64,000 bases of DNA from Clostridiales bacterium (GCA_016342415.1 JAEIOD010000010.1:87351-151350), one strand, 5' to 3'. Positions 7,648 through 43,243 are shown, numbered from the stretch's first letter. Numbers and translations are program-made. The notes: generated by a model not told the origin, from the sequence alone.

Positions 7648-7687
7648 GTTTTTCTCGTAAACGATACCGAAGGTCAATCACAATAAA

Positions 7688-7728: not shown

Positions 7729-7733
7729 AAAAC

Positions 7734-10700
7734 TTAAATATCAAATGAAAGAGTTTTTATTTCAAATGGCCCAAAAGTCAGTTTAAGCAACTGATTGTTC
7801 ATCTCAATGGACTCCTGTATTTCTTCTCTTAAGTTAACGATTTTTGAAGCCTTTAGTTTTGAAGATACCTTTAATTGAATATGAGTATAAGCATTTTTGT
7901 GTTCATGAAGTCTTACGATAACTCGATTGCCATCTTCCGATAGTTTGATGACATCTACAAACACATCTCCCTCAACTATATTTATAAGCGGTTCTGCAGA
8001 TTCATTAGGTGAGTTTATAACCGTTAATTCACTATTAAATCGTTCTGCCTGTTCAATAGTTTGAGCTTCAGACCACCTTTTAATGTGTGGGTAGATGGCA
8101 TAAGAATAGTGATGTTTACCGATATCAGCTGTTTTATTAGGATAAGTTCCTGACTTAATTAAAGACAAACCCATAACGCTCTGCTTAGCAGAATAACCGT
8201 ATTTAGACTCACTCATTAAAGATAAACCAACACCGTTATTGCCTAAATCCATCCACTTGTGCCCACAGGTTTCAAACTTTGCAAGATCCCATGAGTTGTT
8301 GTTTGTTGTTTCTCTTTCAACTGATCCAAACTGAATATCATAGGTTGCCTTATTTTGATAAATAGTCGTAGGAAATTGAGTTCTGAGCAACAAGTTGTTC
8401 TCTTGCCACTCCACATCATGTACAAATTCAATTCTAGGCAACGCCTTATAGAGATGAATTTTTTGTTTAATTACAGAGTTTCCCATTGTATGAATAGTTT
8501 CAATCGTCCACCTAACCGGTCCTGATTCTGTTAAGTACATTTCAGAAGTTTCAAACATATAAGGTTTTCTTTGATAGAATACATCTAAATCCCAGTTATC
8601 CCAATTTGCAGGTCGGTCCTCAAATGCAATAATCTGATTACCAACACCATTTATGTACTCATAATCAGTCAATTTTTCTGTTAAAGAAGTTACTTCGCCT
8701 TTACTGTTAAAACATACACTATAGTACTCGTTTTCAAAATCAAAATGAGTTATCAACTCTTTTGAATTAAGTTTCTTTTCCCCTTTAATAAATTCAAATG
8801 ACTTAAATCCAAATGCTGGTACATCATCCGCTATAAAAACAACTTCATCTTCAGCGATGTATTGAACGGGTTGATTTGAGTCCAAAGCTACAATATCATC
8901 TGTTTTTACAATCATTTTAACAACATCAGTACTATTAAAAGATAAATCATTAAATACAGTCACACTTGATTTTTCATGTTCCGTATTTAATAACGACTGA
9001 CCAATATCATAAGCCAACTGATATTCTTTCTCTGTCGTTTCATAAACTTCAGCTATACTTGTCCCTGGAATAATATCATGAAACTGATTTAATAAAATGA
9101 TATCCCATATCTGCTCAAGTGCTTCTTTGGGAACTTGAATACCTTTTTCAATGTAATCAATCACGGTTAAAATTTCTAGTTTCCTTACCATTATTTCCAG
9201 TTTACGATTCCATCTCTTCACAGAACCATTTGATGTCAGTGTACCTCTATGGTATTCAAAATAGAGTTCCCCATCCCACGTCGGAGTACTAGGTCCATCT
9301 TTTAATTTGTTATAAGCCATATCTAAATATGTGCTATTAAAAGAAGTTTCAATTCTTGGAATACCTGGTAAACCATACTTCAATCGCTTCTCGTTTTCAA
9401 GCATCTCTCGTGTTGGACCACCACCACCATCTCCAAACCCATAAAGCATTAAAGTGTCTTCAATGATATCTTTATTTTGGAAACGTTGATAAGTCCCAAG
9501 TGTCATATTAGGACCTAAGATTCCTGTATAGGTGGTTGTGTTTCTCGTATCTGTAAAACTGATATTCTTACCCAAATTCTTATTGTAATCCGTTGTAGTT
9601 GGCATAAAGGTAAACACTTCAGAGCCATCCAAACCTCTCCATTTAAACACATCATTAGGTAATTGATTATACTGATTCCAAGCCAATTTAGTTGTTACAA
9701 AATAAGGAATATCAAATTGCTTTAGAATTTGAGGCAATGCCGCACTGTAACCAAATACATCTGGTAACCACAACGTTTTACTTCTAACACCAAATTCTTC
9801 TTCAAAGAATCTTTCACCTTTAAGTAATTGTCTAACAAGAGATTCCCCCGATGGAATATTGCAGTCAGCCTCTAACCACATCCCGCCATCAACTTCCCAT
9901 TGTCCAGAACGTACTTTTTCTTTTACACGTTCATACAGATCAGGTTTTTGCTCTTTAACAAATTGATAGAGAATTGCCTGACTACCAATAAACTTGTAAT
10001 CCGGATATCGATCCATTAATTCTATCACAGTTGCATAACTTCGAAGTACTTTTTCTCTGGTCTGCTCTACTGTCCACAGCCAAGCAATATCAATATGAGT
10101 ATTTCCGATTGCATAAACAACCGGTTGATCACTGATATCAGAATAGAATGTTTTTTTCAACATATTTCTACAGTCTGCAATCATATCATAATAGTCTAAA
10201 GTATATGTTCTTCTTAGATCTAATCTATCCGCCACAGGATTTAAACCATTTATAAGCTTAATACGATTATAAGCATCTTTTTCATAGATTAGTTCCGCGG
10301 TTTCAATAGGCATCTTAAGATCATAATACAAGGCTTCAGTCTCAGAGTCCAGTACCATTAAATGACACTGTATCAATAGATCTTTACCTTCGGTGCCACC
10401 GTATGCAAGAAAAGCAATATCAAAAGATTCATTACGTTTTGCTGAATCTGTTAAGATAACTTCTCTATGATTTACATCACAGCCTTGTACAAGTCTCTCG
10501 TTTACATAAAACAAAAACTGAGGATTACATGCATCCCACTGCCCTTCTCGGCCTGTTGTTATCCTGAATACTACGGTTTCATCTGTATATTCTTCTGGTA
10601 ATACAATAGTCGTTTTAAACCATCTATAGGCATCTTCTGCCTTCCAGTTTTCACCTACTGTAAAATCATGCCATGATGAGGTATCCAATTCATAGCCATC

Positions 10701-16487: not shown

Positions 16488-16520
16488 GAAAAAAGAGCAT
16501 TCATTCTGCTCTATTTTTAT
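16488..16520. terminator. bidirectional terminator between convergent genes
   Basis: AAAAGAGCA ... TGCTCTATTTT hairpin flanked by A-run and T-run. Confidence 0.55.
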
Positions 16521-16532: not shown

Positions 16533-18941
16533 TTATAATGATAAATCTTTCCTAGAAACAATCCCTTTTCCGCCATATAGTACCACAACATCTCCGTCTT
16601 TCAGAATATCAGTTGCCCCAGCAACACCCCCAATGGCAGGTAGTCCATATTCTCTTGCTACTATTGCACCATGAGAGATTGGTCCTCCACTTTCCATAAT
16701 CAGTCCTTTTACTTTCAAGAACAAAGGTGTCCAAGACGGATCTGTATTGTGAGTAACAATAATATCTTCTTCGTTTAGGGTCACCCCAACTGGTGAACTG
16801 AGTATACGTACAACCCCAGTGACTTGGCCACTTGATAAAGGCATCCCAACAAGATCGTTTTCTCCAATCTTATCCGGTTCTGGTTGCTCGTAGGTTTCTC
16901 CATTGCTCAAGATAAATCTTGGAATCTTATTGTAACGGTTTTGTTGTTTATATGTTTCTTTTCTCATAGTCACTTCGTCAAGAAGATCAGTAGTATCATT
17001 TAAAGCCATCTCATCAACATACACATAAGCAATATCCTCTCTATTTTGAAGGCGTCCCTCTTCTACCATTTCATCCCCAATCTGAAGAAATATCTGCCTT
17101 AACAAATCAAGGGCTCTTACAGCTGTAAATTTAGGTAATTCTCTTACTCCTGCCAACAGTCTATAATTACGAAGATCACTTGTTATTTTCTTTGCTTTTT
17201 TTGCTGAAAAATCTTTTGTGACTCTCTCTTCAATATGTTTTATACAAAGTTCAGCATCTTCTTGTTGCTCTTTAAAACGCTCTACCATTTGATTGCATTT
17301 ATTGTCTTTCATATAACTTTGGATAAGATCAATAATATAATCCGGTTTTTCGTGCCAACGACTCCACCCCATATCGATATCGAGTTCTGATCTATGACCA
17401 TAAGCTTTAAGAAAACCCAGCAAAGCTTCATCGTCATAAGATGGGATTTTTTGTTCTTTGTTATACTCGCAAGCTAACTTGGCAAGGGCTATTCCCATCA
17501 TGGTTGTTGGATTATTTGGTAAGGCTAACCTCACTGGATTGATTGACAGCTCTTCTTCGTAATGCTTGTTCAACCATTTCTCATGGACTTCTATTTTCTT
17601 AAGTCCATATGCAGCATACATCACAATCTTAAATGCCAAAGTCAGCATCTCCTCATTTACTACTTCAAATAATGCCAAACGATCTTCTCGTGTTGTCGTT
17701 TTCTCTATTCTGTTTTTAAGTTCACTGATATATACATCACCCAAACTTGTTGCTTCTTCAAGACCTTTTGTAGGATTTTTTGCACTGATTTTCCCATACT
17801 TGTTCAGAGACAGTCCCCACCGAACAATACCCATGGACAACTTGAATTTACCACCTTGAGCCCTGAATGTCTTACCGTACTGTCCATATATGCTTTTTAA
17901 TAGGCGTCCACCTGCAGGATCTTTGCTATCAAGACTGCCATGCAACTTTCGTCCAATTATTTTTCTACCGATAACTTCTGTCAAATCATAATAGATCCGT
18001 CCATTGATCATTTTAATAAATCCCGGATACTGAATCTTTTTCTTGCCACTATAATAAATACTTGTATAACCTGAGAAAGTGGAACGCCAAAATTCATAAC
18101 CAAGAGGTGTAAACGGCGCTCTCATACCTTGTATTACAGTGTTGTAACACATATAAAGACTTAGTTTATCCGTGTTCAGTAAAGCCTCATCTATTGGGTA
18201 CAAGGTCGTTATATCTCTTGATTGAAGAATATAAAGGATATCTTTTGAATAAGTCCATTCAATATCCTGAGCGACTCCAAACAGTATTTCCAATTTCTTA
18301 CCCAGTGTTTTAAGTTCCTCGGACTGATCTTCTGTAAGACAGTCTGATACGTGTAAATCATCAATAAACGATAAAGGTACTCGTCCATCCACGACCGCAT
18401 CGCCATAACCTTTTGCACCATTGATCACTATATCATTTCTATTACCTGTAATCGGATTAGCAGTAAACATGACACCCGAGATTTCCGATGCTACCATCGA
18501 TTGAATGATAAGTGCAATACCTTTAATGACTTCGAGATTTTGTTCTTTTACATATGCCATAACATGTTCACTATTACTGGATAACAAACATTTTTTTATG
18601 GCTTCCAGCATCTGTTCAAAACTCTTAACATGTAATACCGTATCGTATAAACCTGCAAAACTTGTATCACCAAGATCCTCCATCAAAGCAGATGAACGTA
18701 CAGCCAACTCCTCATTATCAAACTTGTCATATATATGACGAAGGTTCTCAATCTCTGATGGCGTGAAAGTAAGCTCTCCCTCTTCACATCTCTCCATTAC
18801 TTTTACAGACCAGTCTGATGAAATAACGAGCCCCTTTGGTACATTGATGTTCTCATGAAGCATAAGACCGAGATTGACGGATTTGGTTCCATAGGTCGAT
18901 TTGTCATCTGATATAAGTTCATTGAGTAATTTATATTCCAT
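16533..18941 (-). CDS. PEP-utilizing enzyme family phosphotransferase (PEP synthase / rifampin-phosphotransferase-like architecture), paralog 1
   Basis: 802 aa. N-terminal PPDK_N-type ATP-grasp domain and C-terminal swivel His domain (GGPISHGAIVAREYGLPAIGG). SD AGGAGGTG. Divergent TetR gene immediately upstream. Confidence 0.75.
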   Translation of the reverse strand: MEYKLLNELISDDKSTYGTKSVNLGLMLHENINVPKGLVISSDWSVKVMERCEEGELTFTPSEIENLRHIYDKFDNEELAVRSSALMEDLGDTSFAGLYDTVLHVKSFEQMLEAIKKCLLSSNSEHVMAYVKEQNLEVIKGIALIIQSMVASEISGVMFTANPITGNRNDIVINGAKGYGDAVVDGRVPLSFIDDLHVSDCLTEDQSEELKTLGKKLEILFGVAQDIEWTYSKDILYILQSRDITTLYPIDEALLNTDKLSLYMCYNTVIQGMRAPFTPLGYEFWRSTFSGYTSIYYSGKKKIQYPGFIKMINGRIYYDLTEVIGRKIIGRKLHGSLDSKDPAGGRLLKSIYGQYGKTFRAQGGKFKLSMGIVRWGLSLNKYGKISAKNPTKGLEEATSLGDVYISELKNRIEKTTTREDRLALFEVVNEEMLTLAFKIVMYAAYGLKKIEVHEKWLNKHYEEELSINPVRLALPNNPTTMMGIALAKLACEYNKEQKIPSYDDEALLGFLKAYGHRSELDIDMGWSRWHEKPDYIIDLIQSYMKDNKCNQMVERFKEQQEDAELCIKHIEERVTKDFSAKKAKKITSDLRNYRLLAGVRELPKFTAVRALDLLRQIFLQIGDEMVEEGRLQNREDIAYVYVDEMALNDTTDLLDEVTMRKETYKQQNRYNKIPRFILSNGETYEQPEPDKIGENDLVGMPLSSGQVTGVVRILSSPVGVTLNEEDIIVTHNTDPSWTPLFLKVKGLIMESGGPISHGAIVAREYGLPAIGGVAGATDILKDGDVVVLYGGKGIVSRKDLSL

Positions 18942-19048
18942 AAAAGCACCTCCTAATACGAGACATTTGTCTCATATATACTTTTATGATATATTAAAAT
19001 AAAGCCATCGTCAACAGAACCAAAAGATAAGAGACAGGAGGGCCAACA

Positions 19049-19624
19049 ATGTATCATATCAAAGAAGATCAACGTTCAAAGTTCTCTGCCACACTCATTT
19101 ATGAAGGTCTTACCAAGTTAATGGTCAATAAAGTTTATGAGGAAATTAAAATCACAGAAATAGTCAATGCCGCGGGCGTAGGAAGAGCTACATTCTATAG
19201 AAACTTTGATAGTAAGATTGATATTCTAAGATACCAAAGCGACAAAATCTTTCAAGGTTTATTAGAACACCTCTTTGCATATCATAAAAAGACTCCAGTC
19301 AAACGAAGTTCCGAATTCCTAGTGCCTTTTCTTGAATATTTTGATGTGCATACAGATATCGTTAACTTGCTCATCAAGGCCAATCATGTTGATATTTTAG
19401 TCGACTCCATGAATCTACTATTCAAAGACATGTATGAGGCATATAAAACAAGCGCATCCCATCCCGATGAAACATGGTCCTATTTCATTGCAATAAGAAG
19501 TGGCATCACCATCAACATCCTAGTACAATGGATCAAAGACGGTAAAACGATACCACCAAAAAGACTTGGTGAACTCCTAGGTAATCAACTTGCCAATTCC
19601 TTCACTGTGGATCAATTCCTTTAG
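19049..19624 (+). CDS. TetR/AcrR-family transcriptional regulator
   Basis: N-terminal HTH ITEIVNAAGVGRATFYRNFDSKIDIL. Divergent from the PEP-utilizing paralog. Confidence 0.8.
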   Translation: MYHIKEDQRSKFSATLIYEGLTKLMVNKVYEEIKITEIVNAAGVGRATFYRNFDSKIDILRYQSDKIFQGLLEHLFAYHKKTPVKRSSEFLVPFLEYFDVHTDIVNLLIKANHVDILVDSMNLLFKDMYEAYKTSASHPDETWSYFIAIRSGITINILVQWIKDGKTIPPKRLGELLGNQLANSFTVDQFL

Positions 19625-21615: not shown

Positions 21616-23010
21616 CTAATTTTCATCCTTCATTTCATACATCTTTTCATCTGCTTCTTTGATTAGTTCACTAAACGAATTCCCTATACATCTGTCACAA
21701 ACAATTCCTACACTGATTGAAACAAAAAGATCATGTTCTGGAATTTTAAACTCTGAATTGTATGTATCCAACAATCGAGCTTTTAATTTTTCCAACTCCT
21801 TTTGGTCATTTGCTTTTGGGATTACAATCAAAAATTCATCTCCACCAATTCTAAAGACAGATTCATTGCTCCTTGAGCATTTATCAATAATACGCGCTAC
21901 TTCTATAAGTACTAAATCACCAACATGATGGCCATAAGTATCATTGACACTTTTAAATTTATCAATATCAATAATCATCATTCCAACCATGCTAGCTTCA
22001 CGATCAGCAGTTGAGCAAACAACATCCTCATAAGTCTCTAAAAACTGACGATTCAAAAGACCTGTCAAAGAATCATGATTAGACCTATACTTGATATTCA
22101 AATACTTCAAAAAGAAATATACAAGCAAAGTAATCATAATTGCAGAAAGAAAACTGATAATCACACCGATACTCCATTGTTTTAGCGAACTAATCCAACC
22201 ACCTTCTTTTATTACCAATACATCCCAAATAATGGGTTCATCGATAAAACTAAAACTAACTGGATTTTGATCCCTAATCTTAGTATCACCATATATGATA
22301 TTTCCATCATCATCTTTTTCAAATATCATTACTTCTATATTTGCATCATCAGCCTTCGAGGATATGACTCCATAAATCTCATCAGCTTTCAGAACAATAC
22401 TTACTTGTCCCCAATACAAACCATTTGAACTTAACAAGGGTTGCCTTATTATAAATCCTTGTCCACCTTGAACCAGATTAATAGGACCTTGAAATCCCGA
22501 TTTTAACTCCGTCTTGGTTCTAAGCACAACTTCCCTTTATGTCTCAATCTGAGCTAAATCGATACCAAGAGATTCCTCATTCCCTTCAAGTGGATAATTA
22601 CACACTATTGATGTATCTTCAATTATCGCTATATTTCTGATGTACTTCATATTGTCTCTAGTTAAACTTCCGAGATATTCCAAAGTATCCATTTGATTGC
22701 TAAAGCCGTTAATCATCAAATATGCCTGATATCCTTCCAACAATGTCATTTGATTCTGTATCAAAGAATGTATATCGTTCTGAAATCGGAAATATCGTTC
22801 TGTGGTCTCATAACGTTCTTGTCTTTGAATATCTCTAATAACAATTGATGTAACCAACATGAAAATCAAAAAAATTATAAAACCAATAAATCCAGAATAT
22901 AAAAGCGCTTTTTTTCTACGAAACTTCTTAAATGAATACTTCATTAAATCCCCCCTATACTTATTATAGCCAGAGAGATACAACTCAACCAAATAAAAAT
23001 CATGCAACAC
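21616..23010 (-). pseudogene. sensor diguanylate cyclase (TM-dCache-TM-GGDEF) interrupted by a single in-frame TAA
   Basis: Track ORFs 22537..23010 and 21616..22527 are in the same frame, separated only by TAA (...GIDLAQIET * REV VLRTKTELK...). The downstream part carries a second TM and a GGDEF domain (RIGGDEF). Confidence 0.7.
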
Positions 23011-24816: not shown

Positions 24817-25150
24817 TCAACTCAATTTTTCCACTCTATTTCGACCATTTTCCTTCGCTTGATATAAAGCATCATCAACATCTTTAATCAATTGTTTCAA
24901 TGTATAATTTTTATTGTAGGTCGCAACACCAAAGCTCGCTGTTTTATGTCCAACATGTTCAAAGTGATAATTGTTTATGATGTCTTTTAATTCTTCTGCT
25001 TTCATGTATGTATCATCAATATTGGTTTCAGGCATAAGAATTATAAATTCCTCACCACCCCATCTACCGACAATATTCCGTTTGTAGAAATTGTCCCTTA
25101 GTATGTGATAAATTCAACTAACACATCTCCGCTTGATGACCATACGTAAT
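24817..25150 (-). pseudogene. C-terminal remnant of a GGDEF-domain gene
   Basis: Reads ...LRDNFYKRNIVGRWGGEEFIILMPETNIDDTYMKAEEL...YQAKENGRNRVEKLS* with an in-frame stop just upstream. No N-terminal part. Track shows only 24817..25035. Confidence 0.6.
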
Positions 25151-25198
25151 ATTAACATCCTTAATATAATTGATATCTACCTGTTTTATAAATCTTTG

Positions 25199-27763
25199 TT
25201 AAATTTCTTCAAGCAATCTGACAGTACCTCTATTTCCATCTACTTCAATGAGATCTCCATCTTTAATTAAATCCATAATCCCGACTAATCCACTAACGCA
25301 CGGTATCCCATACTCTCTTGCAATAATACTACCATGTTGTAATGGTCCACCTATTTCCATAACAACACCAGAAGCATTAGTAAAGATTGGTGTCCAAGAA
25401 GGTTCCGTTGCTCGTACAATCAGTATTTCACCTGGTATAATTGATTTTTCATATGGCGTGTGAAGTACTTTTGCCTTTCCGACTACTTTACCTGGCGCTA
25501 TTGAGTCACCAATAATATCACCGTTTTCAATCTTAATTTTTGCTTTATGGATTTTCCCACGGCTGTCAATTACAAGAGGCCATTGTGTTACTGATTCAAC
25601 AGTCTTATAACCTCTTAGATTCTTTTCTCTTGTAAACATCAAGTCGAATTTTTCATCTTTCTGAGCTTTTGTGATTTCCTCTATTGTTAAGTCAAATATA
25701 TGACAGGCCTCTTCAAGTCTGCCTTCTGTCACCCATTTTCCAGCAATCTCAAGACAGATTTTATGGAGAATTGAAAATGCATTAACAAGCATATATTTAG
25801 GATACTCTCTGTAACCAAAAGTTGCTTTTAATCTTTCAGCAGCTTTAATGAACTTCTTATCCTGACCTTTGTCTTTAGCGACTTGCAGAAGTTTATTATA
25901 TGCCTCTTCTCTCTTGGATTTAACAATTAGATTTTGATTCTCAGATGGATTGATTTGTATTAATCGGTCATATAGCATACCGACATCTTCATATATTCTT
26001 TTAGTAGCAACATCAATCTCTTTAAAACCACGCGACGAGTATAGTCTCATAAACTTACCATAATGAGTCATAAAACCGACAGGAAAATTATCTGTTTTAA
26101 TTTTTAATATAAAATGAGCTCTGGATTTTATTTCCCTAAACTCAGAAGAACATGCCATTAAAAATAGAAGATTGCCCATTTCACTTGTAGGATTTCCATC
26201 TAGATCCATATTCAAAGCAATGAGTTCAGTATCCAGATCATCATTCTTAAAGATTTTTTTTAACTTCTGCTGTGACAACATACCCGCAAATATCGGTGAT
26301 ACATTATCCATCAAAGTATCAAAAGCTGTCATGGTTTCATTTACCAATTCATCTATAGTTTTTTTACAGTCAAGATTCTCTATGACAGCAGTAAAGATAT
26401 CCACGCTTTTCAAATAATCTTTGACGATCCTTTCTTGATCTGAATAAACAGCTTTAAAAAGATCTGGTAGCATCAAGAGTGCTTTTTTTAGAGATCTTCC
26501 AATATACCCTTTTGTGCCCTCTGGTTTGCCTTCAAAAGAATGTGATTCAAGATCAATGTTCTCAAATATCTTCTTAATGTTCCCATCATAAGTATCCAAG
26601 GCTTTTCTACCTGTTTTTTTCCCAAGCACTTTCTGATATGCAGTGACACTCAAGTATTCTCGACCATTAACGACTGGAGCGGTTCCATTTATCTGGGTAC
26701 TGAGTAAACCACTCTTAGTTGAATAGATGAGTTTTTTCCATATATCCATACCCATAATGCTCATAGATTCGTCAATACCTTGAGTCATCATCAATAGATC
26801 AATATAAAATCTTTTTGTTTCTCCTGGTTCAGTCAGAAGTTCTTCGAAAAAAGGTAGGTGAGTTGTGATTGGTCTTGCTTGAAGAAGATACAGTTGATCT
26901 GCTTCATATGCCCATTCAACATCAACAGGAAAATTATAATGTTGCTCACACCTTTTGATCAATGAAGATAGTTCTATTATTTGTATCTCCAATAGAGCTG
27001 GTTGCTCTTTATTTATATTTTCTTTTTCCACCATGCCACCATTAGGATTTAACTGAAGTTCAATCTCTTTAATGTTGACTTTTTTCTCAATTATTTTCTT
27101 GTCAACTATGTCATAGATGTACATATCCGGTGTTACAATCCCCGATACAATTGCTTCTCCTAATCCGAAACTGGCATTGATAACGACTTCATCATAAGCA
27201 TTATTCAGTGGATTTAATGAAAAACCAACACCACTGACCTCAGACGCAATTTGTCTTTGAATAATGACTGCAATCGAAGTGTTTTCTAACGGAATGTCCT
27301 TTTGCTTTTTATAAGACATTACCCTGTAGTCGAAACAGGAAGAAAATGCCAAAGCAACAGTTTCTTCTAAATCTTCTATCTTCTTGCCTAAATACGTTTC
27401 ATACATACCTGCAAACGATACACCTTTTAAATCCTCTTCTGGAGATGATGAACGTACTGCAAAAAACTTGTCTTCTAAAATCATGATTTGATTGTCGAAC
27501 ATTTCTTTTTGTTGTTTATCAAATTTCAGAATCATTGCCAACGACTTTACTTTATCGCAATTTTCCTTAGTTGTATCTTTTAGTGTATTTAAAAATTGTT
27601 CAGATTCTTTGATTTCTGACAACCAAGACTCAAAAAAATCGACACTTAGAACAATGCCTTCCGGTACAGGAAAACCAGCCTTTTTTGTTTCGATTAGTAC
27701 TTTTGCCTTTCCACCGACTTGCAATATAGAAGGCACCTTTTTTACATCAAAACTATGAATCAT
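25199..27763 (-). CDS. PEP-utilizing enzyme family phosphotransferase (rifampin-phosphotransferase/PEP-synthase-like), paralog 2
   Basis: Track ORF 25199..27802. Likely start is the internal MIHSFDVKK at 27763, which has a strong SD AAGGAGG and overlaps the TetR stop by 11 nt. C-terminal swivel domain GGPLQHGSIIAREYGIPCVSG. Confidence 0.75.
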   Translation of the reverse strand: MIHSFDVKKVPSILQVGGKAKVLIETKKAGFPVPEGIVLSVDFFESWLSEIKESEQFLNTLKDTTKENCDKVKSLAMILKFDKQQKEMFDNQIMILEDKFFAVRSSSPEEDLKGVSFAGMYETYLGKKIEDLEETVALAFSSCFDYRVMSYKKQKDIPLENTSIAVIIQRQIASEVSGVGFSLNPLNNAYDEVVINASFGLGEAIVSGIVTPDMYIYDIVDKKIIEKKVNIKEIELQLNPNGGMVEKENINKEQPALLEIQIIELSSLIKRCEQHYNFPVDVEWAYEADQLYLLQARPITTHLPFFEELLTEPGETKRFYIDLLMMTQGIDESMSIMGMDIWKKLIYSTKSGLLSTQINGTAPVVNGREYLSVTAYQKVLGKKTGRKALDTYDGNIKKIFENIDLESHSFEGKPEGTKGYIGRSLKKALLMLPDLFKAVYSDQERIVKDYLKSVDIFTAVIENLDCKKTIDELVNETMTAFDTLMDNVSPIFAGMLSQQKLKKIFKNDDLDTELIALNMDLDGNPTSEMGNLLFLMACSSEFREIKSRAHFILKIKTDNFPVGFMTHYGKFMRLYSSRGFKEIDVATKRIYEDVGMLYDRLIQINPSENQNLIVKSKREEAYNKLLQVAKDKGQDKKFIKAAERLKATFGYREYPKYMLVNAFSILHKICLEIAGKWVTEGRLEEACHIFDLTIEEITKAQKDEKFDLMFTREKNLRGYKTVESVTQWPLVIDSRGKIHKAKIKIENGDIIGDSIAPGKVVGKAKVLHTPYEKSIIPGEILIVRATEPSWTPIFTNASGVVMEIGGPLQHGSIIAREYGIPCVSGLVGIMDLIKDGDLIEVDGNRGTVRLLEEI

Positions 27764-28373
27764 CAGAGCCTCCTTTATAAAAGTTGTTTTTAAGTATTTC
27801 ATAGTAACTATTACATTCTTCTTTTAGATTTAAAATATCTGTTTCACTTACAGTTACTTCAGGTTTTTCCAATAAATTTTTATATAAACCTCTGAAGGTC
27901 CACTTAATAATATGCAGCATTTTTTTTATCTCTAATTCATCTTTAAACAATGAATAATCAACGTTATGACTAAAAAACCTTTCTCTCCAATCACGGAGTT
28001 CTGTCGGATTTGCATATTTAAAAATATGGTCTTTGTATTTTTCACCGAACTCAATCATATAAGGATATTCAGCTATAACATCCAATCTGTATTTTGTGAG
28101 TTCACAAACTCTTTTAATGATATCGCTATTGTCCCAATCGATATAGTCGTTCACTTCACTAACACCCTTTTGCAAGGAGTAAAAATTAAGGTAATCAAAC
28201 AAGGTTTCCTTGTCCTTAAAATAATGGTAAAGAATACCTCTAGAGATTTTGGCTTTTTGAACAATCAAATTCGTTGATGCTTTTTTATACTCATTTTTGG
28301 AAAATACTTCAAATGATGTTTTTATGATATTTTTCACCATTTCATTACTTGTATCAATATGATCAAAGTCCAT
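27753..28373 (-). CDS. TetR/AcrR-family transcriptional regulator, co-transcribed with paralog 2
   Basis: HTH STNLIVQKAKISRGILYHYFKDKETLF. Likely start MDFDHIDTS (28373) with SD AAGGGAG. Track ORF extends further upstream. Confidence 0.75.
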   Translation of the reverse strand: MDFDHIDTSNEMVKNIIKTSFEVFSKNEYKKASTNLIVQKAKISRGILYHYFKDKETLFDYLNFYSLQKGVSEVNDYIDWDNSDIIKRVCELTKYRLDVIAEYPYMIEFGEKYKDHIFKYANPTELRDWRERFFSHNVDYSLFKDELEIKKMLHIIKWTFRGLYKNLLEKPEVTVSETDILNLKEECNSYYEILKNNFYKGGSDDS

Positions 28374-28403
28374 TTCTTCACTCCCTTTACTCAATATAAG
28401 TAT

Positions 28404-28457
28404 CATCGACAACTTCTGTCTATAATAATCATACATCCATCGACAGAAGTTGTCAAT
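28404..28457 (-). promoter_or_regulatory. candidate TetR operator pair plus promoter: inverted 13-bp repeats GACAACTTCTGTC / GACAGAAGTTGTC flanking a TATAAT-like element
   Basis: Seen in sequence at 28408-28420 and 28442-28454. Each half-site has palindromic GACA/TGTC ends. Lies 30-80 nt upstream of the tetR start. Confidence 0.5.
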
Positions 28458-28507
28458 GTGGATTTTTGTTAAGAATAGCAATCAAAAAGCACTTCATAGT
28501 GAAATGC

Positions 28508-29710
28508 TTAAGAATTAATTGTTTTTTTGAGATACCTTAAGTTCTTTTGTATTAACTGTTTTTTTATCCATGAAACAGTTTTAAAATAAGATTGTAAATA
28601 AACAGCGAGAAATGCTAAAAGACCAATGACTCTTATCCTTGAAAGAAAATATATCATTTCATTTATCGAGGTAGCATATGGCGAATTACCAGAAGAAAAC
28701 TCTTTAATAAACCATCTGTAAAAATCTCCGATGGACTCTATACTATACGATCCATCATAATAAACATCAATATAAAACTCAAATGATATGACTTTATAAA
28801 TTAACAGACTTAAAACAATCAAACTCATTAACTTAAGAAAACTTGATCTGACATTATACTCATTAAGACAACGCCACTGATGAATGTAGTGCTTGGTGTT
28901 AAAAAGCTTAAAATTTTTAATGAACTGTTTGTATTCATTCACCATTAATTTAACAAGCTCTATTATTATGAACACGCCCATAATGAAAAAAACTATTTTG
29001 ATCGTCATGGAAAACTGAGTTTTATAGTTTAAGGCATCACTCACTTCAAGGTTATTTATCATCAAACCTTCATCAGCCATTATATTTTCTAAAGCTTTTC
29101 TTTCCAGATTGATATCACTTCTTACTTCCCCATGTACAATCTTGTGTTCACTAAATATGTTTACGAATATGTCATTTGAGATAACAGCTACTTTTTCTAC
29201 ATCGTAAAACGGATTTACAATGAGAAGATCCTCATCTTCTATTACTCCAATTATTGTAAATTTCTTTTTTGAAATTTCTATTTCTTTTCCAATCACATCT
29301 GTACTATTAAACAAATCCTTTGTAATACTTTTACCAATTACTATATATCGTTCATAATCTTCCATATCACTTTTTAAGAAATACGATCCAGTTATTAAAG
29401 GGTATTTATTGAATCTGAAAAAATTCTCATCCGATCCATACAGATTTGCTCTTGTTGATCCATACTGACTTGTGATTGAAATTTTTTCCCTACTGTAAAA
29501 ATTGGCATCCAACTCACTGAACGTCTTATCAATAGTTTTAAACGGTATGCCTTCTACAACGCTTGTATCCTTATCCAAGTCTATAGACCAATGAAATTCC
29601 GATTTACCTACAGAATACTTATTGATATAAAAAGAACATACAATAACAATTAGAATCAGTAGAAGAAGAATCACTGCCCGAATTAGACCAAATAAAATTT
29701 TTTTATTCAT
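28508..29710 (-). CDS. MacB/FtsX-like membrane permease-type protein (N-terminal TM, ~230-aa extracytoplasmic domain, C-terminal TM bundle)
   Basis: Topology inferred from hydrophobicity. Start overlaps the HlyD stop by 8 nt. Assignment to the FtsX family is tentative. Confidence 0.45.
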   Translation of the reverse strand: MNKKILFGLIRAVILLLLILIVIVCSFYINKYSVGKSEFHWSIDLDKDTSVVEGIPFKTIDKTFSELDANFYSREKISITSQYGSTRANLYGSDENFFRFNKYPLITGSYFLKSDMEDYERYIVIGKSITKDLFNSTDVIGKEIEISKKKFTIIGVIEDEDLLIVNPFYDVEKVAVISNDIFVNIFSEHKIVHGEVRSDINLERKALENIMADEGLMINNLEVSDALNYKTQFSMTIKIVFFIMGVFIIIELVKLMVNEYKQFIKNFKLFNTKHYIHQWRCLNEYNVRSSFLKLMSLIVLSLLIYKVISFEFYIDVYYDGSYSIESIGDFYRWFIKEFSSGNSPYATSINEMIYFLSRIRVIGLLAFLAVYLQSYFKTVSWIKKQLIQKNLRYLKKTINS

Positions 29711-30992
29711 CTATAATCACCTTGTCGCCATCACTAAGGTCCCTTGAACTTGATGTTATGATTTTCTCGTTTCCATAAAGCCCATTGACAATACCAATGT
29801 TTACATCATCCGATTCCCCAAGCAGCACTTCCTGGAATTTTACTGTATACGACTTACCAAACGCAGTATCTTGTTCTATAAGAACAAATACATTCTCTAT
29901 TTGTGTCCTCGCATATATGGCCGATCTAGGAATCCTGACATCATAATCTCCATATTGCTTTCTCATAAACAAATCGCAGATTTCTCCACCCATTAGATCA
30001 TCATGTTCAATATCCAAAATCAAAGTTACGACTCCACTATAATCCGATTTTCTCTTTTCAATGACCACACCATTAACTACTTCACCCAACTCTTTTATTG
30101 TTACAGAAAACTTATCTCCTATACTTATGAATTTTGACGTTTCATTTTGAAAATCAGAATGTACTTCGTAACCGTCTTTATCACTACTTAAAATATACAA
30201 GGGTGTAGAAGAGTTTATCAACATACCTTCAGTGTACGGAAGCGCCTCGACGATTCCGTCTTCATTTGCTTTGACAATACAGGATTCTATATCTTCTTCA
30301 AGTGAAATGATATCTTCTTTTATCGTCATAATGGAGAGATTGTATTCTTTTATTTGTATTTCAATGCCAAGTATTTCGTTTTTAATTAGTTCATTATTTT
30401 TTAGGTTTGCCTCAACTTGTTTCTCATAATTTTCTTTTGCTGTATTATAACTATTTTCCCAATTCAAAAGCTCATTTTTTGAAATGCCTCCACTTTCATA
30501 AATAATCATTTGATTATCTAAATTTTCTTTTGATTGGTTTAATTCTCTGACCAATCTATCTAGTGATTCACTCTTTAATCCAAGAAGTGCATTATTTTTT
30601 GATATTTCCACCCTATTAAGTGCAAGATCTAATTTACTGAGTTCTGCATTCAGATTCTTTATTTGCTTCTCTAAAGGTGTTGTATCAAGAACCATGAGTA
30701 TGTCACCTTTGGTTACTTCATCGTACTTCTTCGTATGAAGCTCTAAAATTCTAACCGGAATATCATAATACAATTCAAATTTGCTCTTACGTAAAACTTG
30801 ACCTTCACTTCTCATGACTTTCAAGAGACTTCCTGAATCGACTTTCTCAACAGTCACTCTAGGTAAAGTCCATGCAAGAAAAGATTTTGAAAAAAAAGTG
30901 AAAATGAGTATAAATATTATAAATGCTATAAAAATAGTTTTAGCTCTATTTTTTCCGATTCTCATATAATCATTGATTTTCATTATTATCAT
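29703..30992 (-). CDS. HlyD-family membrane-fusion/periplasmic adaptor-like protein
   Basis: N-terminal TM, long coiled-coil segments (IKNLNAELSKLDLALNRVEI..., QVEANLKNNELIKNEILGIEIQIKEYNL), C-terminal beta-barrel-like region. ATGA overlap with the upstream permease. Confidence 0.65.
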   Translation of the reverse strand: MIIMKINDYMRIGKNRAKTIFIAFIIFILIFTFFSKSFLAWTLPRVTVEKVDSGSLLKVMRSEGQVLRKSKFELYYDIPVRILELHTKKYDEVTKGDILMVLDTTPLEKQIKNLNAELSKLDLALNRVEISKNNALLGLKSESLDRLVRELNQSKENLDNQMIIYESGGISKNELLNWENSYNTAKENYEKQVEANLKNNELIKNEILGIEIQIKEYNLSIMTIKEDIISLEEDIESCIVKANEDGIVEALPYTEGMLINSSTPLYILSSDKDGYEVHSDFQNETSKFISIGDKFSVTIKELGEVVNGVVIEKRKSDYSGVVTLILDIEHDDLMGGEICDLFMRKQYGDYDVRIPRSAIYARTQIENVFVLIEQDTAFGKSYTVKFQEVLLGESDDVNIGIVNGLYGNEKIITSSSRDLSDGDKVIIDE

Positions 30993-41199: not shown

Positions 41200-42700
41200 T
41201 TGATCAAAGCAGCATAATAACAGGTGTAAGAGTTATCTTTCAAGCACAAATGAGTGGTACTAGATACCGAACACTAATCCTTGTTTGAACAATTGTTTAA
41301 TGTGTGATAACTCAGTTAATGTCTTCGCTTACCTATGTAAGGAGGTCACCATGAAAGTTGTTTATCCTACTTGTTGTGGCATTGATGTACACAAGAGCTT
41401 TCTCGTTGCCACAGTAATCACTTCCGATAGCATTAAACCTAAATATTTTAAAAAGCGGTTTTCTACTTTTAACAATTCGCTCAAAAAATTAAAGGATTGG
41501 CTATTGGAATTTAACTGCCTCGATATCTGCATGGAATCTACAGGCAAGTATTGGATCCCCGTTTACAATATCCTAGAAGATACTTGCAACGTCACTATAG
41601 CCAATCCTAAATGGGTACGTGCCATTCAGGGTCAAAAAGACGACGTCAAAGACTCCAAGTGGATAGCTGAGCTATTCCGATTAGGACTTGTACCTGGTAG
41701 TTTTATACCCGAAAAACCGATTCGTATTCTAAGGGAATTCACTCGGTACAGATCTAAAATCACGAATTGCAACTGTAGCGAAAAAAATCGCTTCCAAAAT
41801 GCTTTTACCGTTTGTAATGTCGCACTTGATTCTGTTGTTTCCGATATGTTCGGTGTTTCTGCCAAAGCTATTACTAATTATCTCATTACGAGTGATACCT
41901 TCGATTCTGAAGTCTGCACTTCTCTTCTAAAAACATCTTTGAAAAAGAAAGCCGATATTGTACTCGATTCAATCCAAGGTTATTCTATGGAATCAGCTCA
42001 AAAAGACCGAATGCTACTTATTAGAAATCATCTCAATTACACCGAACAAATGCTTGAGATAATTGATTCGAAACTAGACGAATTAATTTTACCTTATGAA
42101 AATGCTATAAGCCTACTTTGCTCTATTCCAGGAGTGGGCAGACGTTCTGCCATAACGATTATCTCAGAAGTTGGGATTGATATGTCCTACTTTAGAAATT
42201 CAAAAAGATTATGTTCTTGGGCCGGATTAACTCCGAGTAACAACCAATCTGCTGGTAAAAAGAAGTCTGTTAAAGTCTCGCGTGCTGGTGTCTACCTCAA
42301 ACCAGCATTAGTCCAAGTGGCTCATGCTGCCGTGAGATCAAATCAGAATCCATATTATAAAATAAAATATAAACGAATTTCAAAACGTAGAGGTAAAAAA
42401 CGAGCAATTATAGCTATTGCAAGAATGTTACTTACCGCAATTTTTCACATGTTATTAACAGGTGAATTATTCAATCCATGTGATCTTTTTAAATTTGATA
42501 TGCCCGAAGAAATGCTTGAACGTCAAAAGAAAAAAGCAATTAACAATGCTATCAAATTATTGAACAGAGAAGGTCTCATTAATAATCTAGAAGCATTAGC
42601 TACTTAATAAGTAATTCTAAATCATTAAGGCTTATTTAAGTGCGCCTGAAATTGATTTTTTTGTATTGTTTTCACACTACTCTCCTTGTTAATTAAAATG
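41200..42700 (+). mobile_element. IS110-family insertion sequence (boundaries approximate; the family lacks clear terminal IRs)
   Basis: Contains a DEDD transposase gene. Flanked by a GGDEF gene start and an esterase remnant. Confidence 0.6.
41351..42607 (+). CDS. IS110-family transposase
   Basis: Likely start MKVVYPTCCGIDVHK with SD GGAGGTCA. The track ORF starts earlier at 41285. Typical IS110 N-terminal DEDD region and C-terminal domain. Confidence 0.8.
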   Translation: MKVVYPTCCGIDVHKSFLVATVITSDSIKPKYFKKRFSTFNNSLKKLKDWLLEFNCLDICMESTGKYWIPVYNILEDTCNVTIANPKWVRAIQGQKDDVKDSKWIAELFRLGLVPGSFIPEKPIRILREFTRYRSKITNCNCSEKNRFQNAFTVCNVALDSVVSDMFGVSAKAITNYLITSDTFDSEVCTSLLKTSLKKKADIVLDSIQGYSMESAQKDRMLLIRNHLNYTEQMLEIIDSKLDELILPYENAISLLCSIPGVGRRSAITIISEVGIDMSYFRNSKRLCSWAGLTPSNNQSAGKKKSVKVSRAGVYLKPALVQVAHAAVRSNQNPYYKIKYKRISKRRGKKRAIIAIARMLLTAIFHMLLTGELFNPCDLFKFDMPEEMLERQKKKAINNAIKLLNREGLINNLEALAT

Positions 42701-43015
42701 GTCAAGAGTTTTATATCCATCATATAACTGTATTTGAAGTCTTAATCCTACATTCAGTAATTACCCATTCAAGTTTGCTACAATCAGACAGACCTTAACA
42801 TGTGATATCAGAACATTTGTTACTCAAGATATTTTTGAGTCACCAATAGACAGGTGGATAACCAAAGCCATTTCAATCAACTGAGTATATTAATATGGTT
42901 ATCATGATTTTGTTTAAAATATCCACCTCACTCTTTCTTGTTTATATCTATAAGCTTGTAAATTAGCTGTCATTGGACATCATAACTCGTTACATCTCAT
43001 ATGATCATTCTCTTC

Positions 43016-43243
43016 TCATTTTTTATTTATTAAAACTTCTCTTAAACCTCTATTAAACGTTGCAGGTATAACCGACAAGTGTGTTTCATTATCAAAGATA
43101 TGAGTTGTTAAGTTTGATCCAGAATAGTTTTTCTCATTAAGTATTTTAGATAGGTCAACTACATTGTCCACCATTTTTGCAAACCCAGGTTCATCTATAG
43201 CTTCTAAAGCACCCGATGACATAAATACATTGGTATTCAACAT
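43016..43243 (-). pseudogene. C-terminal remnant of an alpha/beta-hydrolase (esterase-family) gene
   Basis: 75-aa ORF (..GALEAIDEPGFAKMVDNVV...THIFDNETHLSVIPATFNRGLREV) resembles the C-terminus of putative esterases. No N-terminal part between it and the next gene. Confidence 0.35.

What the first reader, a model, noticed from the sequence alone, without database searches (positions are those of the whole stretch)
25199..28481. Duplicated TetR-linked PEP-utilizing (rifampin-phosphotransferase-like) modules
Two paralogs (802 and ~855 aa) have the ATP-grasp + swivel-His architecture shared by PEP synthase and antibiotic (rifamycin) phosphotransferases. Each sits next to a TetR regulator. One TetR is divergent (16533-19624). 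The other is co-transcribed with an 11-nt overlap and a strong SD on the corrected start (27763). TetR control is typical for xenobiotic/antibiotic-responsive genes, not central metabolism. These are therefore candidate small-molecule (antibiotic?) phosphotransferases rather than PpsA.
Basis: partly seen in the sequence, partly recalled or inferred. Interest (0 to 1): 0.55.

Follow-up and report, generated by a model that had tools for sequence, protein, structure and literature searches.

The report
Two TetR-controlled RPH-family small-molecule dikinases
The window carries two distantly related enzymes of the rifampin-phosphotransferase type, mis-named "PEP synthase" in databases, each with its own TetR repressor and conserved operator; they most likely phosphorylate unknown foreign small molecules, probably not rifamycin, and are new members of a known enzyme family.

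Summary
Two ORFs (A: 16533-18941, 802 aa; B: 25199-27763, 854 aa) have the ATP-grasp, central helical domain and C-terminal swivel-His architecture of rifampin phosphotransferase (RPH). Neither has the PEP/pyruvate TIM barrel of PpsA. Both AlphaFold models match full-length RPH-Lm (TM 0.72-0.77), while PEP synthase matches only about a third of each model.

All catalytic and phosphate-handling residues are invariant in both clades. Rifamycin specificity is not supported:
- Identity to RPH-Lm is 29% (A) and 26% (B).
- NCBIfam RPH scores are 348 and 336 bits against a cut-off of 999; an annotated Listeria rph copy used as control scores 1448.
- Several rifampin contacts are changed or deleted.

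The two modules are not duplicates of each other. The enzymes share 26% identity, and the two TetRs show no significant similarity.

TetR linkage is conserved and strongly enriched. All 5 A orthologs examined have the divergent 191-193 aa TetR, and 23 of 65 upstream neighbours of B relatives are TetR. Each module has a conserved operator at its promoter. Relatives often add an MFS or MatE pump.

Best reading: ligand-induced xenobiotic-modifying dikinases, substrate unknown. New members of a known kind; moderate-low interest.

The parts
25199..27763 (-). Dikinase B, 854 aa: ATP-grasp, RPH-type central domain and C-terminal swivel-His domain.
   Evidence: ORF and start. An identical 854-aa protein, P0001, is in the database. 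Pfam. AF2 model pLDDT 86.8, with best PDB match RPH-Lm 5hv1 at TM 0.76/0.77.
25334..25336 (-). Codon of the predicted phospho-carrier His810 of B (motif LQHGS).
   Evidence: Aligns with RPH-Lm His825 and is invariant in 29 B-clade sequences.
27753..28373 (-). tetR-B, 206 aa. Its stop overlaps the dikinase B start by 11 nt, which suggests translational coupling.
   Evidence: TetR_N E 1.9e-11. Start ATG 28373 with an AAGGGAG SD. Orthologs sit beside the dikinase gene in related loci: upstream within 0-90 nt in most, about 320-360 nt in L003 and L014, behind an intervening MFS gene in L002 and L017, and downstream in L004 and L006.
28428..28456 (-). Promoter of the tetR-B/dikinase-B operon: TTGACA, 17 nt, TATGAT.
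   Evidence: Matches 11 of 12 consensus positions. A promoter of the same layout, framed by the two operator boxes, is found in the orthologous loci.
28442..28454 (-). Operator box O1, GACAACTTCTGTC, overlapping the -35 hexamer.
   Evidence: Exact copy. At up to 1 mismatch, 0.01 matches are expected per window. The box pair with 34-nt spacing is conserved in 10 related loci, with a variant 37-nt spacing in L026.
28408..28420 (+). Operator box O2, an inverted copy of O1 that starts 8 nt downstream of the -10 hexamer.
28487..28509 (-). Terminator-like hairpin of the upstream MacB-like gene; it marks the 5' boundary of module B.
   Evidence: 10-bp stem followed by a T-run.
16533..18941 (-). Dikinase A, 802 aa: same three-domain architecture, with a shortened ATP-grasp domain.
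   Evidence: P0121 is 100% identical. AF2 model pLDDT 88.2, with best PDB match RPH-Lm at TM 0.76/0.72. The deletions are shown.
16671..16673 (-). Codon of the predicted phospho-carrier His757 of A (motif ISHGA).
18986..19014 (-). Promoter of dikinase A: TTGACG, 17 nt, TATCAT.
   Evidence: Matches 10 of 12 consensus positions. Both hexamers are largely conserved in 6 orthologous intergenic regions.
18956..18977 (.). Operator palindrome ATACGAGACA-tt-TGTCTCATAT. It lies between the -10 hexamer and the SD of dikinase A and overlaps the -35 of tetR-A.
   Evidence: Inverted repeat, 90% complementary. Conserved in L080, L082, L083, L085 and L086.
18967..18995 (+). Promoter-like site for tetR-A: TTGTCT, 17 nt, TATATT, with TG before the second hexamer.
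   Evidence: Matches 9 of 12 consensus positions. This is a weak consensus match only.
19049..19624 (+). tetR-A, 191 aa (TetR_N plus TetR_C_8), divergent from dikinase A.
   Evidence: A divergent 191-193 aa TetR is present in all 5 A orthologs examined.
16494..16512 (.). Bidirectional terminator-like hairpin at the 3' end of dikinase A. With it, A reads as a monocistronic unit.

Best explanation
Each module is a self-contained, ligand-inducible detoxification unit built around a small-molecule dikinase of the RPH superfamily.

Enzyme mechanism (inferred from homology). [quoted passage not shown] The swivel domain then carries the beta-phosphate to the central helical domain. There the conserved Gln / Arg-Glu-x-x-Lys network transfers it to a hydroxyl (or comparable oxygen) of a bound small molecule. 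The net reaction is ATP + substrate + H2O -> AMP + Pi + substrate-phosphate.

Regulation (inferred from sequence and conservation). Without inducer, the cognate TetR dimer sits on its operator.
- Module B has two GACAACTTCTGTC boxes that bracket the -35 and +1 of the shared tetR-dikinase promoter.
- Module A has one 22-bp palindrome between the -10 and the SD of the dikinase, which also overlaps the divergent tetR promoter.
Binding of the substrate, or a related compound, to TetR would release repression.

Substrate. The central domains of A and B share only 18% identity and the TetRs are unrelated, so A and B probably act on different compounds. Neither compound is likely to be rifamycin. The recurrent MFS_3 or MatE pumps in relatives suggest a toxic xenobiotic or natural product that is modified and/or exported. 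A phenolic or polyketide-like compound is my guess.

Shown: architecture, fold, conserved catalytic residues, synteny, conserved operators and promoters. Inferred: catalysis, repression and induction, the detoxification role, the substrate class.

The confidence of 0.75 applies to 'TetR-controlled RPH-family small-molecule dikinases that are neither PpsA nor rifamycin-specific'. I put the narrower claim that their role is detoxification or resistance, rather than catabolism or biosynthesis, at about 0.55.
For: Architecture and fold:
- PPDK_N plus C-terminal PEP-utilizers, no TIM barrel.
- PF27448 Rph_4th in both clades.
- Foldseek best hit is RPH-Lm over about 850-900 aligned columns, TM 0.72-0.77. 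PEP synthase 2ols reaches TMq of only 0.26-0.32.

Catalytic residues. The equivalents of RPH-Lm K22, R117, T136, E297, Q337, T523, R666, E667, K670 and H825 are invariant in 16 A-clade and 29 B-clade sequences. Their roles are described in PMC4844700.

TetR linkage:
- All 5 A orthologs examined have it.
- The closest B relatives, at 69% and 64% identity, have it.
- TetR_N occurs in 23 of 65 upstream neighbours; the next most frequent family, MFS_1, occurs in 4.
- 27 of the 30 TetR-like ORFs in the flanks lie adjacent to the dikinase or in its operon.

Operators:
- The B box pair at a fixed 34-nt spacing occurs in the window and in 10 loci across several Clostridia families. At up to 1 mismatch the box is almost absent elsewhere in 1.04 Mb of related loci.
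- The A palindrome and promoter are conserved in 6 loci.

Pumps. In L002, L017 and L026 an MFS gene lies in the same box-controlled operon. In more distant relatives an MFS or MatE gene lies downstream and a TetR is divergent. L082 has a MatE gene next to an A ortholog.

Both modules are bounded by terminators and have their own promoters.
Against: - There is no biochemical or expression evidence, and the substrate is unknown.
- The window itself has no pump inside either module. The MacB-like and HlyD-like genes upstream of module B are separated from it by a terminator.
- About half of the B relatives lack an adjacent TetR.
- TetR regulators also control catabolic and biosynthetic genes, so TetR linkage does not by itself prove detoxification.
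- The ATP-grasp domain of A has lost about 60 residues, including a beta-hairpin. Full ATP-dependent activity of A is therefore less certain, although the shortened form is conserved across its clade.
Confidence: 0.75

Rival explanations
1. They are true rifamycin phosphotransferases. They would inactivate rifamycins by phosphorylating C21-OH, and the TetRs would sense rifamycin.
For: RPH-Lm is the closest solved structure by both sequence and fold. The phosphate-handling residues Q337, R666, E667 and K670 are conserved. A keeps T354, P356, L387 and F479. The rifampin pocket is mostly hydrophobic and tolerant of change: V368T/E and Y351F had small effects (PMC4844700).
Against: - Identity to RPH-Lm is 29.4% (A) and 26.3% (B), and 22% and 19% in the rifampin-binding domain. 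All validated RPHs are more than 42% identical to RPH-Lm.
- The NCBIfam RPH equivalog NF041857 scores 348 and 336 bits against a cut-off of 999. An annotated L. monocytogenes rph copy (NCTC7974) scores 1448 and Bacillus velezensis Pps 1504.
- Gln336, one of only two H-bond donors to rifampin, is Ile/Val in A and Thr in B. V368 is Tyr in A. L478/F479 are deleted in B. Both proteins carry a 12-18 aa insertion inside the 351-359 contact loop.
- A Clostridium difficile homologue from a distant clade did not confer rifampin resistance.
- The rph of L. monocytogenes and the pps of B. velezensis have no TetR neighbour.
Confidence: 0.07
2. They are catabolic kinases that activate a phenolic growth substrate for anaerobic degradation. 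This would resemble phenylphosphate synthase PpsAB, CreHI or HpeHI/AcvAB, with the TetR acting as the pathway regulator.
For: The characterised non-RPH relatives PpsAB, CreHI and HpeHI phosphorylate phenolic hydroxyls to start catabolism (PMC12167813). HpeI is a structural match to the ATP-grasp domain (9goj). The host is an anaerobic Clostridia MAG.
Against: - No carboxylase (UbiD-like or AcvCDE-like), phosphatase or CoA-ligase gene is next to either module or anywhere in the ORFs I scanned.
- Both modules are two-gene units bounded by terminators.
- The recurrent partner genes in relatives are exporters (MFS_3, MatE), not catabolic enzymes.
- Those catabolic kinases are two-subunit enzymes, whereas A and B are fused like RPH.
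Confidence: 0.12
3. They are biosynthetic ATP-dependent ligases or activators like PigC, RedH or HapC, which activate an oxygen by phosphorylation to drive a condensation in a natural-product pathway.
For: They belong to the same superfamily. The NCBIfam PigC and RedH models hit at E 1e-70 to 1e-83. A split homologue lies inside an NRPS cluster on a B. thuringiensis plasmid.
Against: Scores of 236-279 bits fall far below the cut-offs of 1300-1350. There are no biosynthetic genes around either module in the window or in the orthologous loci inspected.
Confidence: 0.03
4. They are what the databases call them: phosphoenolpyruvate synthases (pyruvate, water dikinases) of central metabolism.
For: Source annotations read 'pyruvate, water dikinase' or 'phosphoenolpyruvate synthase'. 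The ATP-grasp and swivel domains are shared with PpsA.
Against: - There is no PEP-utilizers_C TIM barrel, and the swivel His domain is C-terminal rather than central.
- The PEP_synth models score 185-259 bits against cut-offs of 598-740.
- The fold match to PEP synthase or PPDK covers only the shared domains, with TMq of 0.32 or less.
- RPH enzymes do not phosphorylate pyruvate (PMC4844700).
Confidence: 0.01

Closest known systems
Rifampin phosphotransferase RPH (Listeria monocytogenes RPH-Lm; PDB 5FBS/5FBT/5FBU, 5HV1)
   Same: The three-domain order is the same: ATP-grasp, central helical substrate domain, C-terminal swivel His. The full-length fold matches at TM 0.72-0.77. All residues shown by mutagenesis to drive the two phosphotransfer steps are conserved. 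The dikinase mechanism is therefore presumably the same.
   Different: Overall identity is only 26-29%, and 19-22% in the substrate domain. Both proteins score far below the NCBIfam RPH cut-off. Rifampin-contact residues are changed or deleted, and there is an insertion in the contact loop. A has a shortened ATP-grasp domain. Both are TetR-linked, whereas Listeria rph and Bacillus pps are not.
Flavonoid phosphate synthetase FpsC/YvkC of Bacillus subtilis (Hsu et al. 2023, as cited in PMC10221552 and PMC13099321)
   Same: It is a single-chain RPH homologue that uses ATP to phosphorylate a broad range of non-antibiotic small molecules (flavonoid hydroxyls), giving AMP + Pi. This is the kind of xenobiotic-modifying role I propose here.
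   Different: I could not obtain its sequence, so relatedness was not measured. If NCBIfam NF004880 (837 positions) is its family, which is my guess, then A and B score only 325 and 284 bits against a cut-off of 972.
Two-component phenolic kinases: phenylphosphate synthase PpsAB, CreHI, HpeHI/AcvAB
   Same: They use the same ATP-grasp, swivel-His and RPH-like substrate-domain chemistry on small aromatic hydroxyls (PMC12167813). HpeI (9goj) matches the ATP-grasp domains structurally.
   Different: They are split into two polypeptides and are embedded in catabolic operons with carboxylases and phosphatases. A and B are fused and stand alone with a TetR.
Prodiginine-condensing enzymes PigC / RedH / HapC
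   Same: Same superfamily and domain order. ATP-dependent activation through the swivel His.
   Different: They are biosynthetic ligases located within pigment clusters. A and B score far below the family cut-offs and have no cluster context.
TetR-repressed drug-response operons (TetR/TetA, QacR/QacA type)
   Same: An HTH TetR_N regulator is encoded beside its target. Palindromic operators overlap the promoter. In module B, autoregulation would follow from co-transcription, and in relatives efflux pumps share the operon.
   Different: The regulated gene is a modifying enzyme rather than, or in addition to, a pump. Neither TetR has a close characterised relative (best PDB E about 1e-8, all structural-genomics entries). 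Their ligands are unknown.

Membership tests
RPH-type small-molecule dikinase superfamily (Stogios et al. 2016; Pfam PPDK_N + Rph_4th + PEP-utilizers) | Domain order: N-terminal ATP-grasp, central helical substrate domain, C-terminal swivel phosphohistidine domain. | tested here: met
   Pfam. PF27448 Rph_4th precomputed for P0001, P0121 and the orthologs. Foldseek full-length match to RPH-Lm at TM 0.72-0.77.
RPH-type small-molecule dikinase superfamily | Catalytic residues: ATP-site K22/R117/T136/E297, block-9 R666-E667-x-x-K670, Q337, and the swivel H825 (RPH-Lm numbering). | tested here: met
   All are present in A and B and invariant in 16 A-clade and 29 B-clade sequences. The numbering was checked against the residues named in PMC4844700.
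RPH-type small-molecule dikinase superfamily | ATP-dependent dikinase activity (AMP + Pi + phospho-product) through a phosphohistidine. | not testable with these tools
   Needs an enzyme assay.
Rifamycin-inactivating phosphotransferase proper (NCBIfam NF041857; clade A of Stogios et al.) | Score above the curated equivalog cut-off, and more than 42% identity to RPH-Lm. | tested here: not met
   A scores 347.8 and B 336.5 bits against a cut-off of 999. Controls: an annotated L. monocytogenes rph copy 1448, B. velezensis Pps 1504. Identity 29.4% and 26.3%.
Rifamycin-inactivating phosphotransferase proper | Conserved rifampin-contact residues (Q336, Y351, T354, P356, A357, M359, V368, L387, L478, F479, M673). 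| tested here: not met
   Q336 is I/V in A and T in B. Y351 is W in both. V368 is Y in A. In B, P356 and L478/F479 fall in gaps. There is a 12-18 aa insertion after position 354 in both. A keeps T354, P356, L387 and F479. This is a sequence-level test only, because the pocket is hydrophobic and tolerant.
Rifamycin-inactivating phosphotransferase proper | Confers rifamycin resistance and forms rifampin-phosphate. | not testable with these tools
   Needs MIC and product assays.
Phosphoenolpyruvate synthase PpsA (TIGR01418 / NF005057) | C-terminal PEP/pyruvate-binding TIM barrel (PF02896) with the swivel His domain in the middle. | tested here: not met
   No PF02896 hit, and the swivel domain occupies the last ~80 residues. 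Scores of 185-259 bits against cut-offs of 598-740. The fold match is limited to the shared domains.
Prodiginine ligases PigC / RedH (NF052631 / NF052632) | Score above the equivalog cut-off, and location in a pigment biosynthetic cluster. | tested here: not met
   Scores of 236-279 bits against cut-offs of 1300-1350. No biosynthetic neighbours.
Flavonoid phosphate synthetase FpsC/YvkC | Sequence orthology to B. subtilis YvkC; flavonoid phosphorylation. | not tested
The activity needs an assay.
TetR-family repressors | N-terminal TetR_N helix-turn-helix domain. | tested here: met
   TetR-B scores 44.0 bits and TetR-A 28.4 bits against a cut-off of 24. TetR-A also hits TetR_C_8.
TetR-family repressors | Palindromic operator at the regulated promoter, conserved with the regulator. 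| tested here: met
   For B, the two GACAACTTCTGTC boxes sit at the promoter, and the pair is conserved at 34-nt spacing in 10 loci. For A, the 22-bp palindrome is conserved in 6 loci. Binding itself was not tested.
TetR-family repressors | Ligand-induced release from DNA. | not testable with these tools
   Needs EMSA or a reporter assay with candidate ligands.

The most novel reading that the evidence does not exclude
A and B are founding members of two uncharacterised clades of xenobiotic- or antibiotic-inactivating dikinases. Each clade is hard-wired to a dedicated ligand-sensing TetR and, in relatives, to an MFS or MatE exporter. That would make them a widespread 'sense, phosphorylate, export' resistance module in anaerobic and marine bacteria against natural products other than rifamycin. 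The conserved TetR/operator pairs would then serve as ready-made biosensors for finding the substrates.
Probability: 0.3. Interest if true: 0.6.

Novelty: new member of a known kind. Interest (0 to 1): 0.33.

Why it matters
RPH-like proteins are common in genomes and are routinely mis-annotated as PEP synthase. Stogios et al. (2016) predicted that most of them phosphorylate unknown small molecules, and very few have since been assigned a substrate.

This work shows that two such clades carry intact catalytic machinery. Each travels with its own TetR and a conserved operator, and relatives often carry an exporter. That points to inducible modification of foreign compounds.

It also gives a practical handle: the TetR/operator pairs can be used as reporters to screen for the inducing, and probably the substrate, molecules. 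If a substrate proved to be an antibiotic, these would be new resistance determinants in environmental anaerobes. As it stands, this is an annotation correction plus a testable lead, not a new principle.

Tried and rejected
- **Single-protein scan of genome contigs with B.** It found nothing. The profile-based scan worked.
- **Rfam scan of the whole window.** No RNA family was found, so there is no riboswitch control.
- **PADLOC.** No defence-system hit for any of the four proteins.
- **Plasmid collection.** There is no near-identical or module-level match. Only distant family members were found, including true rph and pps genes without a TetR and a split homologue in an NRPS cluster. I therefore have no evidence for plasmid carriage.
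- **Look-up of P0001 in the assembly index.** Not on record, so the source annotation of tetR-B could not be read.
- **Literature searches.** Searches for yvkB/yvkA and for TetR-linked 'PEP synthase' induction by phenolics found nothing useful. MarK turned out to belong to an unrelated family (UPF0261) and was dropped as a comparator.
- **PDB search with the two TetRs.** No characterised close relative was found, so no ligand can be inferred.
- **Recent module duplication.** Considered and rejected: the enzymes are 26% identical and the TetRs are unrelated.
- **Cross-regulation of A by TetR-B.** There is a 1-mismatch B-type box inside gene A. I consider real cross-regulation unlikely. The box encodes the conserved peptide DLTEVIG and is lost in the more distant A orthologs.

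Full report
**What is there**

The window is low-GC (about 0.29-0.37). Its two large proteins are 100% identical to proteins of a Clostridiales MAG (P0001 and P0121).

Dikinase A is 16533-18941 (-), 802 aa. Dikinase B is 25199-27763 (-), 854 aa. Both carry an N-terminal PPDK_N ATP-grasp domain and a C-terminal PEP-utilizers swivel domain. Neither has the PEP-utilizers_C TIM barrel of PEP synthase or PPDK.

B starts at ATG 27763, behind an AAAGGAGG SD. That start overlaps by 11 nt the stop of an upstream TetR gene. The TetR ORF listed to TTG 28481 runs across its own promoter. Its real start is most likely ATG 28373 (206 aa; AAGGGAG SD; N-terminus as in the orthologs).

A is divergent from a 191-aa TetR (19049-19624), with 107 nt between them.

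**Not PpsA, and RPH-like in architecture**

By sequence, the best solved relative of both proteins is Listeria monocytogenes rifampin phosphotransferase (E 9e-73 and 3e-78).

AlphaFold models are confident: B has pLDDT 86.8 and pTM 0.83, A has 88.2 and 0.85. Both match full-length RPH-Lm at TM 0.72-0.77 over about 850-900 aligned columns. PEP synthase (2ols) and PPDK match only the shared domains, with TMq of 0.32 or less.

The precomputed Pfam family PF27448 (Rph_4th) is present in both proteins and in their relatives.

**Catalytic machinery**

I rebuilt the RPH-Lm sequence (residues 18-866) from the HMMER alignments. Its numbering reproduces every residue named by Stogios et al. (PMC4844700).

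I then aligned it with 16 A-clade and 29 B-clade sequences. The following are invariant in both clades:
- the ATP-site residues K22, R117, T136 and E297;
- the phosphate-transfer residues Q337, T523, R666, E667 and K670;
- the carrier His825.

The His codons are 16671-16673 in A and 25334-25336 in B. The two-step dikinase mechanism is therefore very likely retained.

**Not rifamycin-specific**

- Identity to RPH-Lm is 29.4% (A) and 26.3% (B), and 22% and 19% in the rifampin-binding domain. Validated RPHs are all more than 42% identical to RPH-Lm.
- The NCBIfam RPH equivalog gives 348 and 336 bits against a cut-off of 999. An annotated L. monocytogenes rph copy (strain NCTC7974) and Bacillus velezensis Pps, used as positive controls, give 1448 and 1504.
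- Among the rifampin contacts, Q336 becomes I/V (A) or T (B), Y351 becomes W, V368 becomes Y in A, and L478/F479 are deleted in B. Both proteins have a 12-18 residue insertion inside the 351-359 contact loop.
- In a neighbour-joining tree, the A clade, the B clade and RPH-Lm with its actinobacterial relatives form separate deep groups.
- Stogios et al. already showed that a distant Clostridium difficile homologue gives no rifampin resistance. They proposed that most of the family acts on other molecules.

**Two old paralogs, not a duplicated module**

A and B share 25.6% identity overall and 18% in the central domain. The two TetRs show no significant pairwise similarity. TetR-A belongs to the TetR_C_8/DhaS-like group, while TetR-B has no recognised C-terminal family. 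Different substrates and different inducers are therefore likely.

**The TetR linkage is conserved**

For A, the five orthologs examined (42-79% identity, each in an otherwise different neighbourhood) all have the divergent 191-193 aa TetR.

For B:
- The closest relatives (69% and 64% identity) have a 200-202 aa TetR ending 2-6 nt before the dikinase.
- Among 79 loci from species-representative genomes, TetR_N is by far the commonest upstream neighbour: 23 of 65, with MFS_1 next at 4.
- Of 30 TetR-like ORFs among 711 ORFs in the flanks, 27 are adjacent to the dikinase or in its operon.

A Bacillus outgroup of the A clade also has an overlapping co-directional TetR. By contrast, the rph of L. 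monocytogenes and the pps of B. velezensis have no TetR neighbour (only two cases).

**Operators and promoters**

Module B is bounded upstream by a terminator-like hairpin (28487-28509). It has an 11/12 sigma-70-type promoter: TTGACA starting at 28456, a 17-nt spacer, and TATGAT ending at 28428.

Two exact copies of GACAACTTCTGTC in inverted orientation bracket this promoter. One overlaps the -35 (28442-28454). The other begins 8 nt after the -10 (28408-28420). At up to 1 mismatch, 0.01 copies are expected per window.

The same box pair, at the same 34-nt spacing and the same position relative to the promoter, is found in L002, L003, L009, L015, L017, L021, L022, L090 and L091. In L026 the spacing is 37 nt. 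These loci come from several families (Tissierellales, Eubacteriales, Lachnospiraceae, Clostridium boliviensis, Peptostreptococcaceae), with dikinases only 44-69% identical to B. In L009 the two boxes are direct rather than inverted. That fits each GACA-N5-TGTC box being a site in its own right.

Other B-family loci carry a second type of TetR with GACCGTACGGTC-like palindromes.

Module A has a promoter (TTGACG starting at 19014, a 17-nt spacer, TATCAT ending at 18986) followed by a 22-bp palindrome (18956-18977). The palindrome lies between the -10 and the SD and overlaps a weak tetR-A promoter. A bidirectional terminator closes the gene at 16494-16512. The promoter, the palindrome and further half-site-like elements around the tetR-A start are conserved in six loci.

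These footprints are strong sequence evidence that each TetR controls its dikinase. Binding itself has not been tested.

**Clues to function**

In L002 and L017 an MFS_3-type transporter sits between the TetR and the dikinase. In L026 the boxes precede MFS, dikinase, TetR and a second dikinase, in that order.

In more distant relatives (35-37% identity; Chloroflexota, an Acidaminobacter MAG and others) the pattern is a divergent TetR, the dikinase, and then an MFS or MatE gene. An A ortholog has a MatE gene downstream.

No catabolic or biosynthetic partner recurs, and none is present in the window. Characterised non-RPH relatives phosphorylate flavonoids (FpsC/YvkC) or simple phenolics (PpsAB, CreHI, HpeHI), or act as biosynthetic ligases (PigC, RedH, HapC).

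I therefore favour inducible modification of a toxic foreign small molecule, with export in many relatives. Catabolic activation is the main rival.

**Novelty and score**

The enzyme family, its mechanism and its mis-annotation as PEP synthase are known. So is the idea that most members have non-rifamycin substrates. What is added here:
- the placement of two uncharacterised clades;
- their strict TetR coupling;
- two conserved operator architectures;
- the recurrent exporter.

This makes them new members of a known kind with a clear route to substrate discovery. Interest is moderate-low at 0.33.

Noticed in passing
window 24817-25190 (-): A decayed GGDEF (diguanylate cyclase) gene fragment lies directly after the stop codon of dikinase B. 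It keeps the GGEEF motif and the C-terminus, but it has at least two frameshifts and no N-terminal part. It is only 31% identical to the intact GGDEF gene at 21616-22527. This suggests a past rearrangement or insertion at the 3' edge of module B.
   Followed up: partly
window 17970-17982 (inside dikinase A), with a promoter-like site at 17956-17984 (-): A one-mismatch copy of the module-B operator box (GATAACTTCTGTC) overlaps an 11/12 promoter-like TTGACA-17-AATAAT inside the coding sequence of A. Chance expectation is 0.01 per window. It encodes the conserved peptide DLTEVIG. It is kept in the 79%-identical ortholog (L080) but not in L082, L083, L085 or L086, so it is probably a coding coincidence rather than cross-regulation.
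   Followed up: partly
dikinase A residues ~50-60 and ~189-199 (window ~18345-18375 and ~18760-18790): The A clade has lost a ~25-aa helical insert and a ~34-aa beta-hairpin of the ATP-grasp domain (roughly RPH-Lm 226-262). The loss is stepwise across the clade: the 846-855 aa members keep the segments and the ~800 aa members lack them. The AF2 model has a low-confidence loop at 180-197. The effect on ATP use is unknown.
   Followed up: partly
L083 (TARA ocean metagenome scaffold) 3321-10412: In a related organism the A-type module (divergent 191-aa TetR plus an 803-aa dikinase) is followed about 700 nt later by a TetR (241 aa) and an 872-aa dikinase, with no gene called between. The two kinds of module therefore co-occur and can sit side by side.
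   Followed up: no
L012, L026, L031, L037, L039, L041: There are tandem arrays of two or three RPH-family dikinase genes, for example L041 with 944, 867 and 881 aa, and L026 with MFS, an 841-aa dikinase, TetR and an 863-aa dikinase behind one box pair. This suggests repeated local expansion of the family.
   Followed up: partly
L008, L013, L014, L020, L040, L043 (upstream of their TetR genes): A second TetR type is associated with B-family dikinases. It has different palindromes (GACCGTACGGTC-like, for example TATACCGACCGTACGGTATA in L013). The same enzyme family has thus been placed under at least two distinct TetR/operator systems.
   Followed up: no
window 19020-19060: The tetR-A start-codon region (ATGTATCATAT, reverse complement ATATGATACAT) and a TGTCTCTTAT element just upstream of its SD are invariant in six loci. 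They resemble the two half-sites of the main palindrome split by 13 nt. This may be a second TetR-A site for autoregulation, or simply conservation of the coding sequence and the SD.
   Followed up: partly
window 41285-50975 and 62455-63933: An IS110-family transposase lies at 41285-42607. Next to it is a three-gene cluster on the minus strand: a 1628-aa DUF3686 + AAA ATPase, a 674-aa SPFH/Band-7 protein and a 220-aa ORF. A Mu-transposase-C-domain protein is encoded at the window's end. None of these was examined further.
   Followed up: no
window 28508-30992 (-): A MacB_PCD-type permease-like gene (400 aa) and a HlyD/membrane-fusion-like gene (429 aa) lie immediately upstream of module B on the same strand. 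A terminator-like hairpin and the module's own promoter separate them from it. I saw no ABC ATPase next to them.
   Followed up: no
L084 (Bacillus thuringiensis plasmid NZ_CP032614.1): A split RPH-family dikinase (an ATP-grasp protein of 332 aa plus a 'PEP-utilizing enzyme' of 538 aa) sits between an NRPS gene and alpha/beta-hydrolase and PPTase genes. This is an example of the family in a biosynthetic setting.
   Followed up: no
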